Source of the DNA: a virus
Lineage: Duplodnaviria > Caudoviricetes
Virus record (IMG/VR): IMGVR_UViG_3300037467_003067
Location: 96,001 to 160,000 of that record
Direction: 5' to 3' (one strand)
Length of the DNA: 64,000 nt
The translations under genes were made by a program, and so were the position numbers. Shown here piece by piece: positions 11,634 to 22,198 of this stretch (positions are counted from its first letter, which is position 1; each line of letters begins with the position of its first letter). The notes beneath the pieces are model-generated. The model was not told the DNA's origin and did no database searches. It was given only the letters and a program-made list of their open reading frames with translations.

Positions 11634-11668
11634 GAGACCTTCTTGGTCTTGAAAATATATTGTCTTAG

Positions 11669-11744
11669 TAGCACCAGGGGGATTCGAACCCACCACTGTA
11701 CGGATTTTAAGTCCGTTGCCTCCTACCAATTGGGCTATGGTGCC
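11669..11744 (-). tRNA. tRNA-Leu(TAA), short variable loop, no encoded CCA
   Basis: GGCACCA/TGGTGCT acceptor, ACGGA-CT-TAA-AA-TCCGT anticodon arm, GGTTCGAATCC T-loop, discriminator A. Confidence 0.85.
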
Positions 11745-12312: not shown

Positions 12313-12386
12313 AGGCTCCGGTAGGATTCGAACCTACGATTTCCTGGGTTGCAGCCAGGTGCCTTAGCCAGCTTGGCCACGGAGCC
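12313..12386 (-). tRNA. tRNA-Cys(GCA)
   Basis: GGCTCCG/CGGAGCC acceptor, CCTGG-CT-GCA-AC-CCAGG, GTAGG-TTCGAAT-CCTAC, U73 discriminator; no CCA. Confidence 0.92.
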
Positions 12387-19253: not shown

Positions 19254-19589
19254 TCAACTAAGTCTGCTTCCCGAAGCCACTTCGACTGTGGGCGAACAGA
19301 GGGCAAATCTGCCCTGATCATCCTTTGCCGCCAGGACCATGCCGTGGCTCTGTTCTCCCCGCAAGACCCGAGGCTCCAGATTGGCGACGATGACGATCTG
19401 CTTGCCGATCATGGCAGCAAGGTCTTCGGCGTTGTAGTAGTCACGAATCCCGGCGACGATCTGGCGTTCGTTATCTGGTCCAAGCAAGACCTTGAGCAGT
19501 ACGAGTTTGTCGGCTTTGGGATGCGGAGTTGCCTCTAAGATGGTGACGACTCGCAGATCAATCGCTTGGAATTGCTCGAAAGTGATCAC
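19254..19589 (-). CDS. stand-alone tRNA-binding OB-fold (Trbp111/CsaA/MetRS C-terminal type)
   Basis: IDLRV..ILEATPHPKADKLVLLKV.LG...RQIVAGIR.YY...GKQIVIVANLEPR.LRGEQSHGMVLAA. Confidence 0.88.
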   Translation of the reverse strand: MITFEQFQAIDLRVVTILEATPHPKADKLVLLKVLLGPDNERQIVAGIRDYYNAEDLAAMIGKQIVIVANLEPRVLRGEQSHGMVLAAKDDQGRFALCSPTVEVASGSRLS

Positions 19590-19602: not shown

Positions 19603-20709
19603 TTAAATGCTCACGGCTTTCCAGCCCAATGTTTCGCCTGCACGGTACGGGCGAAATTCGTGGATCGAATCAGGAACAGTCCAGGATTCTTTGACTAACC
19701 TAGTTCTCTTTTGACAAGTCAACAAACCATAGAAATTTCGACCATTCCTCGACACGAACTTCTCGAACCGTTCAATCCGGATCTCGTCCAAGCCCTTGAT
19801 TGCCGGTCCTGGATTAAACGCCTCCCAGACCGATTCTAGCAGACACGGAGAATTGAAGACTCCGGCGCACCCTTCATCACATTCTTTCTTGCTGATCTCA
19901 TGAGGAGCGGTGTCTGATCCCAAGAAGAAGCAACCCTCTGCCTTTATTGCCGCTTCCACGAGTGCTTTTTGGTCACGCTTGTACTTAACCACCGGCATGC
20001 AGTAAAGGTGTGGTCGGAGTTTTCCCGCGAGTAGGTTGTCCAGTGAGTTTTGAAGGTGGTGCGGGGTGATGGTTGCGGCGATCCTGCCGGGAGCCCAGCG
20101 ATGCCACTCTCTAACCTTTTCCACAGCTTCCTTGGTCGTGATGTGTTCCAAAACGATGCGGAGTTTGGAAAACGCTTGGAGGTAATAAGGAACCAACTGG
20201 AGAAAGTTGGATTCTCGTTCCAAGATTTCGTTCTGTTCTTCTATGACGTTCTCGATCTCGCCGTGAAAGGAAAGCACCATACCGAGTCTTTCGATCTCTG
20301 CGATGGTTTGTAGAAAAAGGGAATTTTTCCTAGGGCTGTAGAGAAGTCGTACTAAGTCGGCATGAGGGGTGCCGTCGTGGGCATTGGTCGTAACGCCCTC
20401 AGGATAGACCTTGAAGCCCACAGCCCCCGCCTTGTAGACCTCGCGAACGGTCTCGGGCGTGGTCGCAGTCAACATCTTGGCGAGGATATGGGGACGGCAA
20501 TCGCCGAGGTGAGGTTTGATCTGCTCGTCGTAGGTGAGGACGGTCTCGCCGTTCCAGACAGGAGGTGTTGTGTTGGGCATGACTATGGCATCACCACAGA
20601 CCCGACCCGTATAGGGGGCGACCTTGGCTATGGTCTCGCCTTGCCGCAAGTGGGTGTGGGCGTCGAAGGGAGCCTCAATCGTGAAGTCAGTGATGTATTC
20701 GACAGGCAT
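19603..20709 (-). CDS. pyrC: dihydroorotase (E. coli-type)
   Basis: DAHTHLR, MPNT.PP, FKVYPEGVTTN, HGE, VLEHITT, ATITPHHL, CMPVVK, FLGSDTAPH. Confidence 0.9.
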   Translation of the reverse strand: MPVEYITDFTIEAPFDAHTHLRQGETIAKVAPYTGRVCGDAIVMPNTTPPVWNGETVLTYDEQIKPHLGDCRPHILAKMLTATTPETVREVYKAGAVGFKVYPEGVTTNAHDGTPHADLVRLLYSPRKNSLFLQTIAEIERLGMVLSFHGEIENVIEEQNEILERESNFLQLVPYYLQAFSKLRIVLEHITTKEAVEKVREWHRWAPGRIAATITPHHLQNSLDNLLAGKLRPHLYCMPVVKYKRDQKALVEAAIKAEGCFFLGSDTAPHEISKKECDEGCAGVFNSPCLLESVWEAFNPGPAIKGLDEIRIERFEKFVSRNGRNFYGLLTCQKRTRLVKESWTVPDSIHEFRPYRAGETLGWKAVSI

Positions 20710-20726
20710 GGTGATGTCCTTGAAAT

Positions 20727-20766
20727 GAAAAGACCGCCCGCCAAAATACCCTTATTGGCGGGCGGT
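20727..20766 (-). terminator. intrinsic terminator closing the protein+ncRNA unit
   Basis: ACCGCCCGCCAA/TTGGCGGGCGGT 12-bp stem followed by CTTTTCATTTC. Confidence 0.75.
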
Positions 20767-20774
20767 ATAGGTTT

Positions 20775-20946
20775 GTGCTTATTCGCTTGTCCGTGGCTTC
20801 CGTTTAATCCAGTCCTGAGTCTGAGCCAGGCGCTTAACCTTTAAGCTACCCCCGCTAATATGGACCAAATTTTTAAGAGCGGGGGACGAGAATCGAACTC
20901 GTAATCTCCTGGGTTTGAGACTGGAACTCGACCGGACAATAAGCAC
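20775..20946 (-). ncRNA. circularly permuted tRNA-like RNA module 2 (YrlA-like)
   Basis: CCAGG-AGATT-ACGAG-TTCGATT-CTCGT-CCCCCGC [linker] GCGGGGG-TA-GCTT-AAAGGTT-AAGC-G-CCTGG; outer helices TCCAGTC/GACTGGA, TGTCCG/CGGACA, GTGCTTATT/AATAAGCAC. Confidence 0.85.
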
Positions 20947-20961
20947 AGTAAGGAGTCTGTT

Positions 20962-21103
20962 GGCGATAGTCTCAGCCTGATTTTGCCCTTTACGCTCTGC
21001 CGCTGGCGTACCCCGGCGTGGTCTAGTGGGAATGCCGGGGGAAGGATTCGAACCTTCGACCTAAGGGACAATTTAAGTCTAAGTCTAAGCCTAAGACTGC
21101 GCC
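20962..21103 (-). ncRNA. circularly permuted tRNA-like RNA module 1 (YrlA-like)
   Basis: CCCTT-AGGTC-GAAGG-TTCGAAT-CCTTC-CCCCGGC [16-nt linker] GCCGGGG-TA-CGCC-AGCGGCAG-AGCG-TA-AAGGG; outer helix GGCG.AGTCTTAG/CTGAGACT..CGCC. Confidence 0.82.
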
Positions 21104-21137
21104 TCTAACCGCAGGAAAGTTCTGCGGTTAGTTTGAT

Positions 21138-21360
21138 GGGGACGAACCGTTCTTCTGAACTTACGGAAATCTAAGGGAACCTTAGCCCTGTCAGATTCTT
21201 GGACTCACCACAGCCTTATTTCTAAGGTCTTACACGGTGATAACCTAGTCTTTCAACTAGCTTCTCAAGCGTGAATTCCCGTAGAACTTACGGTACTTAA
21301 TCTGAAAGAGTATTTCCCTCTTAAATTTCCGAAGGTTTTTCTTCAACTGTTCGAAACCCC
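21138..21360 (-). ncRNA. multibranch structured RNA domain with GAAA tetraloops
   Basis: Closing GGGG..CGAAC/GTTCG..CCCC; 12-bp CGGAAATTTAAG/CTTAGATTTCCG; TCAGATT/AATCTGA; hairpins CTAGTT-GAAA-GACTAG, CCTTA-GAAA-TAAGG, CCGTA/TACGG; no ORF. Confidence 0.65.
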
Positions 21361-22109
21361 TATTTCACGAGGTCTCCGAAGACGAAGCCGAGGACAGCAT
21401 CACCACACTTCTTCTGCTCGACCTCGATGCTGTTGGCTTCCTCGCGAGCGACCTTGATCGCGTCCTTGAGAGCCCGGACGCGCTTGAGAGCATTGTTTCG
21501 GTCTTGGATGCGGATGGCTCCTGATTTCTTGGTGTTGTTCCAGACCCCGATCGGCTTGTCCACATGCTGAACTTGAACCTGTGCCGGGTGCTTGTCGGTC
21601 GCTTTGGCGAGTTCCAAGACTTCGGCGACCTTGGCAAGTTTCTGGGTCACGTAAGGATCGGTCGTATAGCCGCCTATCTCGGGATCGGGCTTCCAATTCT
21701 CGGAGGGATCGAGCGTCGGGAGCTTGGCAATGAACGTCTCCAGATCGGTGACTTGCTTCTCCAAGAAGAGCAAATTGGTCACCGGAACACCGGAGAGGAC
21801 GACCTTGCCGTCGACCTTGATGTCAGCTTTGGCGATCGTGTTCCCGATGTCTTGAGTGAGGACAACATCCAGCATGGGAGCCAGAGCCGATTTCACTTCG
21901 GAAAGGACATTCGGAATCGTATTCTGGACCCGTTTGATCTCAGGAGGTAGGTGGTTGGCTTGTCCGTCCTCAAACGGCTCGTACCTCCGGTATAAGCCCG
22001 TGAGAGAATCCGGTTTGAGACGAAGGTGTGCGTCCGTAAGGACTTTCTGGGCATTGGTCTTTTGCCCCGAAACCACCGCCACAATCTGGCAAAGCTTTGC
22101 CTTACTCAT
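21360..22109 (-). CDS. conserved hypothetical protein (249 aa), putative partner of the downstream RNA
   Basis: KLCQIVAV..G.K...LPPEIKRVQ...AKADIKVDG...VPVTNLLFLEKQ...LPTLDP...ATDKHPAQV...SGA...AIKVAREEAN; resembles an uncharacterised bacterial/phage family (from recall, not searched). Confidence 0.85.
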   Translation of the reverse strand: MSKAKLCQIVAVVSGQKTNAQKVLTDAHLRLKPDSLTGLYRRYEPFEDGQANHLPPEIKRVQNTIPNVLSEVKSALAPMLDVVLTQDIGNTIAKADIKVDGKVVLSGVPVTNLLFLEKQVTDLETFIAKLPTLDPSENWKPDPEIGGYTTDPYVTQKLAKVAEVLELAKATDKHPAQVQVQHVDKPIGVWNNTKKSGAIRIQDRNNALKRVRALKDAIKVAREEANSIEVEQKKCGDAVLGFVFGDLVK

Positions 22110-22169
22110 GGTCCCCAGAGTCCTCAAATCTTGAATTTGTTGAAAACTGAACTTGATGCTGATGATCTT

Positions 22170-22198
22170 ATTGTATCTGGCTTAGACAACTTTGTAAA
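22170..22198 (-). promoter_or_regulatory. sigma70-like early promoter of the protein+ncRNA unit
   Basis: TTTACA-N17-TACAAT; insulated by an upstream hairpin at about 22213-22250. Confidence 0.72.

What the first reader, a model, noticed from the sequence alone, without database searches (positions are those of the whole stretch)
20805..21350. RNA is saturated with U-N-A-R-R repeats that read as Leu anticodon loops
On the minus strand the flanks of the mimics carry CTTAGG-CTTAGA-CTTAGA-CTTAAA (6-nt period), ATCAGG-CTGAGA, CTCAAAC and CTCAGA-CTCAGG. Read as C32-U33-NNN-R37, these are the Leu anticodons UAG, UAA, CAG, GAG and CAA. CCTGG-CTCAGAC-TCAGG can fold as a full anticodon arm, an alternative to the long-range CCTGG/CCAGG helix. 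A rough hand count gives ~30 TNARR in ~630 nt versus ~10 expected at uniform composition. Inference: either multivalent sites for an oligomeric partner protein (TRAP-like logic) or decoy substrates for anticodon nucleases.
Basis: partly seen in the sequence, partly recalled or inferred. Interest (0 to 1): 0.75.

Follow-up and report, generated by a model that had tools for sequence, protein, structure and literature searches.

The report
Six-base repeat tracks, tRNA-mimic RNA
A soil phage RNA that carries two tRNA look-alikes is lined with conserved six-base repeats (Y-U-N-A-R-N); the same repeats sit in front of the neighbouring unknown gene's ribosome-binding site, so they are most likely docking sites for a protein, not imitation leucine anticodons.

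Summary
TNARR occurs 31 times in 20805-21350 against 15 in dinucleotide shuffles (z 4.7). CTYARR occurs 12 times against 2.3. Only about nine copies matter. They form three phased tracks beside the two back-to-front tRNA mimics. The rest lie in stems of a window-specific 5' domain, or in D-arm and cap-loop sequence.

The tracks are conserved. The RNA follows a DUF7873 gene in 158 of 162 loci from phages, Streptomyces and Planctomycetota. At nine aligned hexamer positions, U and A are kept in 89% of cells, while the base between them drifts. The middle bases of different tracks do not pair consistently.

Tandem hexamers also precede the DUF7873 ribosome-binding site in 28 of 68 phage loci, against 10 of 296 control leaders. 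They are absent in 80 bacterial loci. DUF7873 is modelled to self-associate.

Best reading (0.5): the tracks are phased single-strand sites for a protein, probably DUF7873, with translational feedback in phages. The "Leu anticodon" label is automatic for N-A-R. The anticodon-arm hairpin is unique to this window (1 of 113).

This scan has met the DUF7873 RNA and its hexamers before on other DNA. I found no paper or Rfam family describing them. No binding or expression data exist.

The parts
22170..22198 (-). Sigma-70-like promoter (TTTACA, 17-nt spacer, TACAAT) in front of the DUF7873 leader
   Evidence: 10 of 12 consensus positions. This is a consensus match only.
22121..22163 (-). 5' leader of the DUF7873 mRNA. 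It holds three UCAR units in exact 6-nt phase (AUCAG-CAUCAA-GUUCAG), then three more at looser spacing. The last one (UUGAGGA) overlaps the Shine-Dalgarno.
   Evidence: Sequence. Family test: tandem hexamers in 28 of 68 phage leaders against 10 of 296 control leaders.
21360..22109 (-). DUF7873 gene (249 aa from the ATG at 22109). It is the only gene consistently linked to the RNA.
   Evidence: Pfam PF25283, E 7.8e-81. Single copy in the record. Only conserved ORF cluster across 159 loci. AF2 model with pLDDT 90.6 and no clear fold match.
21105..21359 (-). Window-specific accessory 5' domain of the RNA, a multibranch fold. It holds 15 of the TNARR copies, many of them inside predicted helices.
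   Evidence: MFE -90.1 kcal/mol, z -5.2. Absent from compact family members. TNARR positions.
21072..21098 (-). Track C1: AG, then UCUUAGG-CUUAGA-CUUAGA-CUUAAA. These are four phased hexamers 5' of tRNA mimic A.
   Evidence: A3 columns 28-53 keep U and A in 35-42 of 42 sequences at each of four positions.
20986..21067 (-). tRNA mimic A. In order: anticodon-stem 3' strand CCCUU, variable AGGUC, T arm, 7-bp acceptor capped by a 15-nt loop (discriminator A), D arm, anticodon-stem 5' strand AAGGG.
   Evidence: RNAalifold with compensatory changes in the T arm, acceptor and D arm. Weak Rfam hits only: cyano_tmRNA 19.6 bits, YrlA 16.6 bits. A closing 5-bp stem is found in 75% of family members against 37% of shuffles.
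20962..20981 (-). Track C2a: AUCAGG-CUGAGA, then the conserved CUAUCGCC box.
   Evidence: A3 columns 282-300.
20948..20961 (-). C2b position. In most relatives it reads CCAG-N-CUNAG. In this window it is degenerate (AACAGACUCCUUAC) and has no U-N-A.
20933..20938 (-). 5' strand (UGUCCG) of the long-range helix that encloses mimic B, track C3 and the UUAAACG box.
   Evidence: columns 335-340 pair with 525-530, with 5-20 double-sided changes per pair; mean pairing 0.93 and 5.2 pair types.
20826..20912 (-). tRNA mimic B. In order: CCAGG, variable AGAUU, T arm, 7-bp acceptor capped by a 21-23-nt loop, D arm, CCUGG.
   Evidence: A closing stem is found in 80% of family members against 25% of shuffles.
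20813..20825 (-). Track C3: CUCAGA-CUCAGG-A, two phased hexamers directly 3' of mimic B.
   Evidence: A3 columns 487-497. The alternative hairpin with CCUGG is unique to this window.
20799..20810 (-). Conserved GGAUUAAACGGA box.
   Evidence: UUAAACG is nearly invariant in A3 columns 507-513.
20788..20793 (-). 3' strand (CGGACA) of the long-range helix.
20723..20765 (-). Intrinsic terminator: an 11-bp G+C-rich stem, a 10-nt loop and a U tract. It ends the DUF7873-RNA transcription unit.
   Evidence: Sequence. Matched as a terminator-like hairpin of ncr1175. The scan tool missed it because the loop exceeds 8 nt.

Best explanation
The repeats are phased, single-stranded recognition sites with the unit Y-U-N-A-R-N. 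They sit on an RNA of about 590-640 nt, whose conserved core is about 340 nt, co-transcribed behind the DUF7873 gene.

Three or four tracks (four, two to three, and two hexamers) flank the two YrlA-style tRNA mimics. A protein that reads the U and the A of each unit, six bases apart, loads onto these tracks. The most likely candidate is the co-encoded DUF7873 as a dimer or higher oligomer. The result would be a ribonucleoprotein that displays two tRNA-shaped heads.

In the phage lineages the same sites lie just 5' of, or over, the DUF7873 Shine-Dalgarno. Protein not absorbed by the RNA could then repress its own translation, as in CsrA/CsrB or TRAP.

Shown here: the motif, its phase, its conservation, the lack of a consistent pairing partner, its recurrence in the leaders, and the strict gene-RNA linkage.

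Inferred: that a protein binds, that the protein is DUF7873, and that feedback occurs.

What the particle does with its tRNA heads remains open.
For: 1. Enrichment in the window and across 113 homologues: CTNARR 2.9-fold, phased pairs 9.6-fold.
2. At nine aligned hexamer positions in 42 sequences under 80% identical, drawn from phages, Actinomycetota and Planctomycetota, U and A are kept in 336 of 378 cells. The base between them takes C, G or U freely. Y before U and R after A are preferred. In a plain helix the U and A would be free to change together with a partner. They never do, which argues for sequence-specific readout.
3. No register between tracks reaches helix-like pairing: the best is 0.74, against 0.96-1.00 for the real helices. 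The middle bases pair at chance level in 35 of 36 column pairs. A whole-alignment scan finds covarying helices only in the tRNA mimics and the long-range helix.
4. The RNA lies directly behind DUF7873 in 158 of 162 loci, and no other gene is conserved nearby.
5. Tandem hexamers occur in the 60 nt before the DUF7873 start in 28 of 68 phage loci (40 observed, 9.5 expected). In control leaders of the same loci the figure is 10 of 296 (Fisher p 2e-15). This window is one of the 28.
6. The self-association model supports binding but does not show it. The score is 0.55 and the best of 3 controls is 0.00. That mark was reached by 20 of 30 proteins solved as pairs of one chain and by 1 of 23 solved as single chains. 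The runs agree in at least 84% of contacts, and partner pLDDT is at least 79. Three copies and my own alignment were used, unlike the calibration.
Against: - There is no binding, expression or processing datum for this RNA.
- DUF7873 has no recognisable RNA-binding fold.
- The leader hexamers are absent from all 80 bacterial loci (1 observed, 2.3 expected). Feedback, if real, is therefore a phage-lineage add-on.
- Y-U-N-A-R is self-complementary. The C1 and C2 regions have more duplex potential than shuffles (median z -2.0). The first C1 hexamer is complementary at its middle base to the C2b hexamer in 24 of 42 sequences, where 17 are expected. Part of the tracks may therefore pair in some lineages.
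- A symmetric dimer interface does not by itself explain a direct repeat on one strand.
- An earlier check in this scan priced the general claim 'DUF7873 binds this RNA' at only 22 in 100.
Confidence: 0.5

Rival explanations
1. Structural reading. The tracks on either side of tRNA mimic A run antiparallel. They zip into a long imperfect helix built from the self-complementary pentamer: Y-R, U-A, N.N, A-U, R-Y. This would give a Y-RNA-like stem with periodic mismatches. The repeats would then be helix strands or tertiary-contact elements, not protein sites.
For: - C1 x C2 duplex potential has median dG -18.8 kcal/mol and z -2.0, similar to the acceptor-stem control.
- The first C1 hexamer against the C2b hexamer shows five pair types at the middle base (G-C, C-G, U-A, G.U, U.G) in 24 of 42 sequences.
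- An earlier agent reached this reading on another genome (e1-5391694).
Against: - Overall pairing in the best register is 0.70-0.74, against at least 0.93 for every accepted helix.
- For hexamers 2-4 of C1 against C2a, the middle bases pair at chance level.
- In this window the C2b partner has lost its U-N-A, and C1 (all U) has no A- or G-centred partner in that register.
- C1 x C3 and C2 x C3 show no excess (z 0.0 and -0.4).
- Pairing alone would let U-A covary, yet U and A never change.
- The same hexamers recur in the mRNA leader, where no partner strand exists.
Confidence: 0.2
2. The tracks are sites for a factor other than DUF7873. This could be a host single-strand RNA-binding protein or an endoribonuclease that the RNA sequesters or is processed by.
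For: - The motif evidence names no particular protein.
- DUF7873 has no known RNA-binding fold.
- The family spans several phyla, so a universal host factor is conceivable.
Against: - The leader hexamers are specific to the DUF7873 mRNA among neighbouring genes.
- The only gene that always travels with the RNA is DUF7873.
- Triple-hexamer tracks are not enriched elsewhere in the 298-kb record: 4 places, 2 of them in C1, with 6 matches for the control pattern. No wider regulon is therefore visible.
Confidence: 0.15
3. Anticodon-loop mimicry. The hexamers imitate positions 32-37 of tRNA-Leu or tRNA-Phe. They would act as decoy or pseudo-substrate for an anticodon nuclease or an anticodon-loop modification enzyme, either a host defence enzyme or DUF7873 itself.
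For: - The formal match Y32-U33-N34-A35-R36-(R37) holds in the family consensus.
- The tracks adjoin the open ends of anticodon-stem-like helices of real tRNA-shaped bodies.
- In this window C3 can form a perfect 5-bp, 7-nt anticodon arm.
- The element is common in phage tRNA gene clusters.
Against: - The arm is present in 1 of 113 members.
- The distance from stem to first U is not fixed; under tRNA numbering there is no U33 column.
- The units are tandem without stems, so at most one per track could be a loop.
- The Leu-type share (68%) is below what N-A-R alone gives (75%), and Phe-type GAA is common in Streptomyces.
- Most carriers found are bacterial chromosomes, not phages.
- PADLOC gives no hit for DUF7873.
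Confidence: 0.1
4. Chance or composition. The motif was chosen after the fact, and the excess is a by-product of a short tandem repeat plus base composition.
For: The motif was defined after looking at the sequence. Four of the copies are one 24-nt tandem array. Fifteen copies lie in a non-conserved domain.
Against: Dinucleotide shuffles never reach the observed count. The pattern holds in fixed columns in homologues from 45% to over 70% G+C.
Confidence: 0.03

Closest known systems
YrlA-class bacterial and phage Y RNAs with Ro60/Rsr (Rfam RF02553; Chen et al. 2014, PMC4201824; Wang et al. 2018, bioRxiv 10.1101/312249)
   Same: Both have a tRNA mimic with the arm order T arm, loop-capped acceptor stem, D arm, opened at the anticodon end. 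Both are non-coding RNAs genetically linked to one protein gene and occur in bacteria and phages. M. smegmatis YrlA has a 7-bp acceptor that is cut by RNase P and receives CCA (PMC4201824). The modules here also have 7-bp acceptors, and N-CCA follows the acceptor in 31 of 103 (module A) and 13 of 103 (module B) relatives.
   Different: The YrlA model scores 16.6 bits against a 69-bit threshold. No TROVE gene is in the record. The Rsr-binding motif GNCGAAN0-1G is not conserved: 27 of 113, at scattered positions. This RNA has two heads per molecule and a different partner gene (DUF7873). It also has phased Y-U-N-A-R-N tracks, which are not described for Y RNAs.
TRAP (MtrB) and its (G/U)AG repeat sites in trp leader RNAs of Bacillus; HutP and its UAG repeats (own knowledge of the published systems)
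   Same: Both use short triplet-centred motifs (N-A-G) repeated at a fixed spacing of 5-7 nt on single-stranded RNA, read by one subunit each of a homo-oligomer. Some TRAP sites overlap a Shine-Dalgarno to block translation.
   Different: No TrpBP homologue is in the record. Here the invariant bases are U and A with a free base between them. There are two to four units per track, not 9-11. The tracks sit on a stable structured RNA next to tRNA mimics. No ligand control is known.
CsrA/RsmE with sponge RNAs CsrB/RsmZ (own knowledge)
   Same: One small protein, many repeated short sites on a dedicated non-coding RNA, and the same site at the protein's own ribosome-binding site for autoregulation.
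   Different: CsrA sites are GGA in hairpin loops without fixed phase. The protein families are unrelated. Here gene and RNA form one transcription unit, and the RNA carries tRNA mimics.
Type III toxin-antitoxin pairs such as ToxIN (own knowledge)
   Same: A protein gene tightly linked to a repeat-bearing RNA, moving between phages and bacteria with variable neighbourhoods.
   Different: ToxI repeats are 36 nt long, lie upstream of the toxin and are cut by it. No toxicity or nuclease fold is known for DUF7873.

Membership tests
DUF7873-linked double tRNA-mimic RNA (uncatalogued; defined here by the nhmmer profile and alignment A3) | Lies directly 3' of a DUF7873 gene on the same strand | tested here: met
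   PF25283 at E 7.8e-81. The RNA starts at the stop codon. The same arrangement holds in 158 of 162 loci.
DUF7873-linked double tRNA-mimic RNA (uncatalogued; defined here by the nhmmer profile and alignment A3) | Two permuted tRNA-like modules, each with a T arm, a 7-bp capped acceptor and a D arm | tested here: met
   The nhmmer match of the window is 254.6 bits over profile positions 4-338. The helices carry compensatory changes.
DUF7873-linked double tRNA-mimic RNA (uncatalogued; defined here by the nhmmer profile and alignment A3) | Phased Y-U-N-A-R-N tracks 5' of module A, between the modules and 3' of module B | tested here: met
   C1, C2a and C3 are present. C2b is degenerate in this window.
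DUF7873-linked double tRNA-mimic RNA (uncatalogued; defined here by the nhmmer profile and alignment A3) | UUAAACG box and a long-range helix enclosing module B | tested here: met
   GGAUUAAACGGA at 20810-20799. UGUCCG pairs with CGGACA.
YrlA (Rfam RF02553) | Scores at or above the family gathering threshold (69 bits) | tested here: not met
   16.6 bits, E 1.9.
YrlA (Rfam RF02553) | Encoded within about 4 kb of a Ro60/TROVE gene on the same strand (PMC4201824) | tested here: not met
   No TROVE match in the 298-kb record. The record is estimated 59% complete, so a distant copy cannot be excluded.
YrlA (Rfam RF02553) | Conserved GNCGAAN0-1G Rsr-binding motif near the 5' end (PMC4201824) | tested here: not met
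   The motif is present in 27 of 113 family members at scattered positions. The window's single match lies in the variable region and T stem of module A.
YrlA (Rfam RF02553) | tRNA-like domain with the order T arm, acceptor-like stem-loop, D arm | tested here: met
TRAP-type repeat operator | TrpBP (PF02081) oligomer encoded by the genome | tested here: not met
   No match in the record. The host genome is unknown.
TRAP-type repeat operator | 9-11 (G/U)AG triplets separated by 2-3 nt | tested here: not met
   Tracks hold two to four units at a strict 6-nt period. The first triplet base is free, with C common.
tRNA anticodon stem-loop (as mimic) | 7-nt loop Y-U-NNN-R-N closed by a 5-bp stem, conserved among relatives | tested here: not met
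   Only the window forms it (1 of 113). There is no fixed U33 register.
Permuted (two-piece) tmRNA | Detected by ARAGORN or the Rfam tmRNA models | tested here: not met
   ARAGORN finds only tRNA-Leu and tRNA-Cys elsewhere in the window. cyano_tmRNA scores 19.6 bits against a 70-bit threshold, over the T-arm and acceptor piece only.

The most novel reading that the evidence does not exclude
DUF7873 is an enzyme aimed at the anticodon region of tRNAs that carry A35 (Leu or Phe). Its own RNA would hold it in check as a pseudo-substrate, using two tRNA bodies for elbow recognition plus arrays of U-N-A-R anticodon-like units. That would make this a tRNA-mimic analogue of a type III toxin-antitoxin pair, used by phages and bacteria in conflicts. 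Alternatively the RNA could be a phage decoy for host anticodon nucleases.
Probability: 0.08. Interest if true: 0.9.

Novelty: new variant of a known kind. Interest (0 to 1): 0.68.

Why it matters
The DUF7873-RNA pair is widespread. The protein search gave 1469 hits. Neither the pair nor the RNA appears in Rfam 15 or in the papers I could search.

The hexamer tracks are the most conserved single-stranded feature of the RNA outside the tRNA mimics. They therefore offer a concrete entry point to its mechanism. The motif is short, defined and mutable, and it can be tested by gel shift, CLIP and a leader-reporter assay.

If DUF7873 reads these tracks, this would be a Ro60-independent counterpart of the Y RNA particles. 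It would carry built-in translational feedback in phages and display two tRNA-shaped heads whose targets are unknown.

Tried and rejected
- Rfam 15 at gathering thresholds finds nothing in the region, in the window or in 20 related loci. The permissive scan gives only weak partial hits.
- ARAGORN calls no tRNA or tmRNA here.
- Searches for the DUF7873 fold or function gave nothing clear:
  - Foldseek against PDB: no match at E <= 0.001. The top hits are Pur-alpha (E 0.1) and 3kdq.
  - VIA-align wide search: best is 3kdq, Z 8.1 at rmsd 7.7, within the noise band the tool states.
  - Profile against PDB sequences: nothing.
  - ESM Atlas: only unnamed clusters.
  - PHROGs and PADLOC: no informative hit.
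- No RNA holder is listed among the public runs. All 9 holders are soil or rhizosphere DNA assemblies. I therefore did not lay reads.
- A family-wide closing helix between the 5' GAGCGC box and the segment after C2b is not supported (median z -0.06). The window has its own candidate 9-bp helix there.
- An 'anticodon register' of the tracks looked suggestive under a loose stem definition. It vanished under tRNA numbering.
- A wider regulon was sought with YTNARNYTNARNYTNAR in the 298-kb record. Apart from C1, only two other sites appear, and the count is below that of the reversed control pattern.
- A link between encoded CCA in the mimics and in neighbouring tRNA genes was examined in six loci. 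It is too weak to use.
- Paper searches for DUF7873, for permuted tRNA-like phage RNAs and for Streptomyces tRNA-like motifs found no description.
Full report
**Setting.** The window is bases 96001-160000 of a 298.6-kb IMG/VR virus record, classed as a provirus and estimated 59% complete. Near-identical DNA occurs only in soil and rhizosphere metagenomes.

The finding lies on the minus strand, in a 650-nt stretch without a credible ORF. On one side is a DUF7873 gene (22109-21360; PF25283, E 7.8e-81). On the other are an amidohydrolase-like gene and a small tRNA_bind-domain gene. A sigma-70-like promoter precedes DUF7873 (22198-22170). A strong terminator hairpin closes the non-coding stretch (20765-20723). 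No promoter-like site lies between the stop codon and the RNA. The gene and the RNA therefore look like one transcription unit.

**The observation.** TNARR occurs 31 times in 20805-21350, against 15.0 +/- 3.4 in 2000 dinucleotide shuffles (z 4.7). CTYARR occurs 12 times against 2.3. The reverse-complement pattern is not enriched.

The copies are of unequal standing:
- Eight lie in three phased tracks: C1 (21098-21072, four hexamers), C2a (20981-20970, two) and C3 (20825-20813, two).
- Fifteen lie in a 255-nt 5' domain. That domain folds strongly (z -5.2), is absent from compact relatives, and many of its copies sit in predicted stems.
- The rest lie in D-arm, cap-loop, box and terminator sequence.

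**What the RNA is.** The tracks flank two tRNA-shaped modules whose arms come in this order: anticodon-stem 3' strand, variable region, T arm, 7-bp acceptor closed by a loop, D arm, anticodon-stem 5' strand. That is the layout of YrlA-class Y RNAs (PMC4201824).

Rfam gives only weak partial hits: YrlA 16.6 bits and cyano_tmRNA 19.6 bits. ARAGORN calls nothing here.

I collected 160 DUF7873 loci: 80 viral contigs, and 80 bacterial genomes that are mostly Streptomyces and Planctomycetota. A profile built from seven seed sequences finds the RNA directly behind the gene in 158 of 162 loci held. No other gene is conserved in the neighbourhood.

RNAalifold on 42 sequences under 80% identical supports both T arms, both acceptors and both D arms. 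It also supports a long-range helix (UGUCCG with CGGACA in the window) that encloses module B, C3 and a near-invariant UUAAACG box. Thirty-four of the 37 predicted pairs show compensatory changes. The closing anticodon-like stems are found in 75-80% of members, against 25-37% of shuffles.

**The repeats in the family.** In the alignment the tracks occupy fixed columns. C1 reads A, then four units of R-N-Y-U-N-A. U is kept in 40-42 of 42 sequences and A in 37-42 of 42. C2a, C2b and C3 repeat the pattern.

Over nine hexamer positions, U and A are both kept in 336 of 378 cells. The base between them is C, G or U and follows no rule. The flanking Y and R are preferences, not rules.

Across 113 non-redundant members CTNARR is 2.9-fold enriched. 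Phased pairs TNARNNTNAR are 9.6-fold enriched.

**Are the tracks paired?** Y-U-N-A-R is its own reverse complement apart from N, so two tracks always have some duplex potential. I tested this in four ways.
- Every antiparallel register between tracks was scanned. The best gives mean pairing 0.74, against 0.96-1.00 for the accepted helices.
- The middle bases were tested pairwise. They pair at chance level in 35 of 36 column pairs. The exception is the first C1 hexamer with the C2b hexamer: 24 of 42, where 17 are expected.
- A whole-alignment scan finds covarying helices only in the tRNA mimics and the long-range helix.
- Per-sequence duplex energies for C1 against C2 exceed shuffles (median z -2.0). 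C1 against C3 and C2 against C3 do not.

I conclude that the tracks are not a conventional helix. A partial pairing of the outermost C1 hexamer in some lineages cannot be excluded, nor can a protein-stabilised pseudo-duplex. In this window that pairing is unavailable, because C2b has lost its U-N-A. Plain pairing would let the U-A positions covary. Because U and A never change, something must read the sequence itself.

**The leader.** The DUF7873 leader in the window holds three UCAR units in exact 6-nt phase, then three more, the last over the Shine-Dalgarno.

Across the family, tandem hexamers occur in the 60 nt before the start codon in 28 of 68 non-redundant phage loci (40 observed, 9.5 expected). 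The figure for leaders of other long ORFs in the same loci is 10 of 296 (Fisher p 2e-15). They occur in about one of 80 bacterial loci.

Several examples abut the Shine-Dalgarno directly, for example CAGACUUAGAUUUAGAGGAG in L009. The copies have the same sense as those in the RNA, so RNA-RNA pairing between leader and tracks is not an explanation. A shared trans-acting reader is.

**The partner.**
- DUF7873 gives a confident model (pLDDT 90.6) with no convincing structural or sequence relative.
- A three-copy complex prediction supports self-association but does not show it. The score is 0.55 and the best of three controls is 0.00. That mark was reached by 20 of 30 proteins solved as pairs of one chain and by 1 of 23 solved as single chains. 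The runs agree in at least 84% of contacts, and partner pLDDT is at least 79. My own alignment and three copies were used, unlike the calibration.
- The interface uses the same residues on both copies, so it is a symmetric dimer contact.

**The anticodon reading.**
- Six of the eight N-A-R triplets are Leu anticodons, so the label follows from the motif. In the family the triplets are 68% Leu-type, 16% Phe-type and 15% other.
- The hairpin CCUGG-CUCAGAC-UCAGG exists, but in 1 of 113 members. All other hits of that search are the T arms.
- A loose stem definition suggested that the first U after the stem sits at 'position 33'. Under tRNA numbering no such column exists, and the spacer varies from one to five bases.
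- The decoy idea therefore rests only on formal resemblance.

**Mechanism proposed.** With confidence 0.5, the tracks are phased single-strand sites read at U and A by a protein, most likely DUF7873. The protein would assemble beside each tRNA head. In phages the same sites at the ribosome-binding site would give feedback on DUF7873 synthesis.

Rivals and their weights:
- an imperfect hexamer helix: 0.2
- anticodon-loop decoy or pseudo-substrate: 0.1
- chance: 0.03

**Relation to known systems.** The RNA works like a Y RNA in architecture but fails YrlA membership on three counts: model score, Ro60 linkage and the Rsr-binding motif. The repeat logic resembles TRAP operators and CsrB-type sponges, without sharing their proteins or motifs.

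I found no paper on DUF7873 or on this RNA.

This scan has met the family many times on other DNA: 115 notes in at least 64 genomes. Several agents noted the hexamers and their presence at the ribosome-binding site. One agent preferred the helix reading, which I tested here and find weaker.

Noticed in passing
Family loci (for example L131, L049, L061, L015, L054); in the window compare 21033-21040 and 20878-20885: Directly after the 7-bp acceptor 3' strand, N-CCA is encoded in 31 of 103 module A copies and 13 of 103 module B copies, where chance gives about 1.6%. In the shortest forms the cap loop is just N-CCA plus three bases. [quoted passage not shown] The window's modules lack CCA, and so do its two real tRNA genes.
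   Followed up: partly
window 19254-19589 (-) and 19603-20709 (-): A stand-alone tRNA_bind (Trbp111/CsaA-like) protein (PF01588, E 7.8e-25) and an amidohydrolase-like gene lie just downstream of the RNA's terminator on the same strand. They are not conserved next to the RNA in other loci.
   Followed up: partly
window 21105-21359 (-); L002 3739-3935: This phage and the 436-kb phage contig behind L002 carry extra structured domains between the DUF7873 stop codon and track C1 (window z -5.2). They share a block GAGUCNAAGAAUCUGA. Compact members go from stop codon to C1 in 20-60 nt.
   Followed up: partly
window 21096-21104 with 20941-20949 (-): A candidate 9-bp long-range helix, AGGCGCAGU with ACUGUGCUU (two G.U pairs), would close C1, module A and C2 into one domain. 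Its z is -2.6 against shuffles in this window. Similar helices occur in L056, L083 and L044, but it is not a family-wide feature.
   Followed up: partly
L020 3840-3930, L161, L124, L121 (cap loop of module A): The loops that cap the acceptor stems range from 6 to about 90 nt and sometimes hold their own hairpins. They are either dispensable or excised.
   Followed up: no
G000:C1:215245-215261 (outside the window): This is the only other non-trivial run of three phased hexamers in the 298-kb record (CUUAAAUUCAAACUAAG, or its complement). Its context was not examined.
   Followed up: no
window 11668-11744 and 12313-12386 (-): The phage encodes tRNA-Leu(UAA) and tRNA-Cys(GCA) about 9 kb from the mimic RNA. 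Several related phage loci place the DUF7873-RNA unit inside tRNA gene arrays, for example L048, L053 and L081.
   Followed up: no
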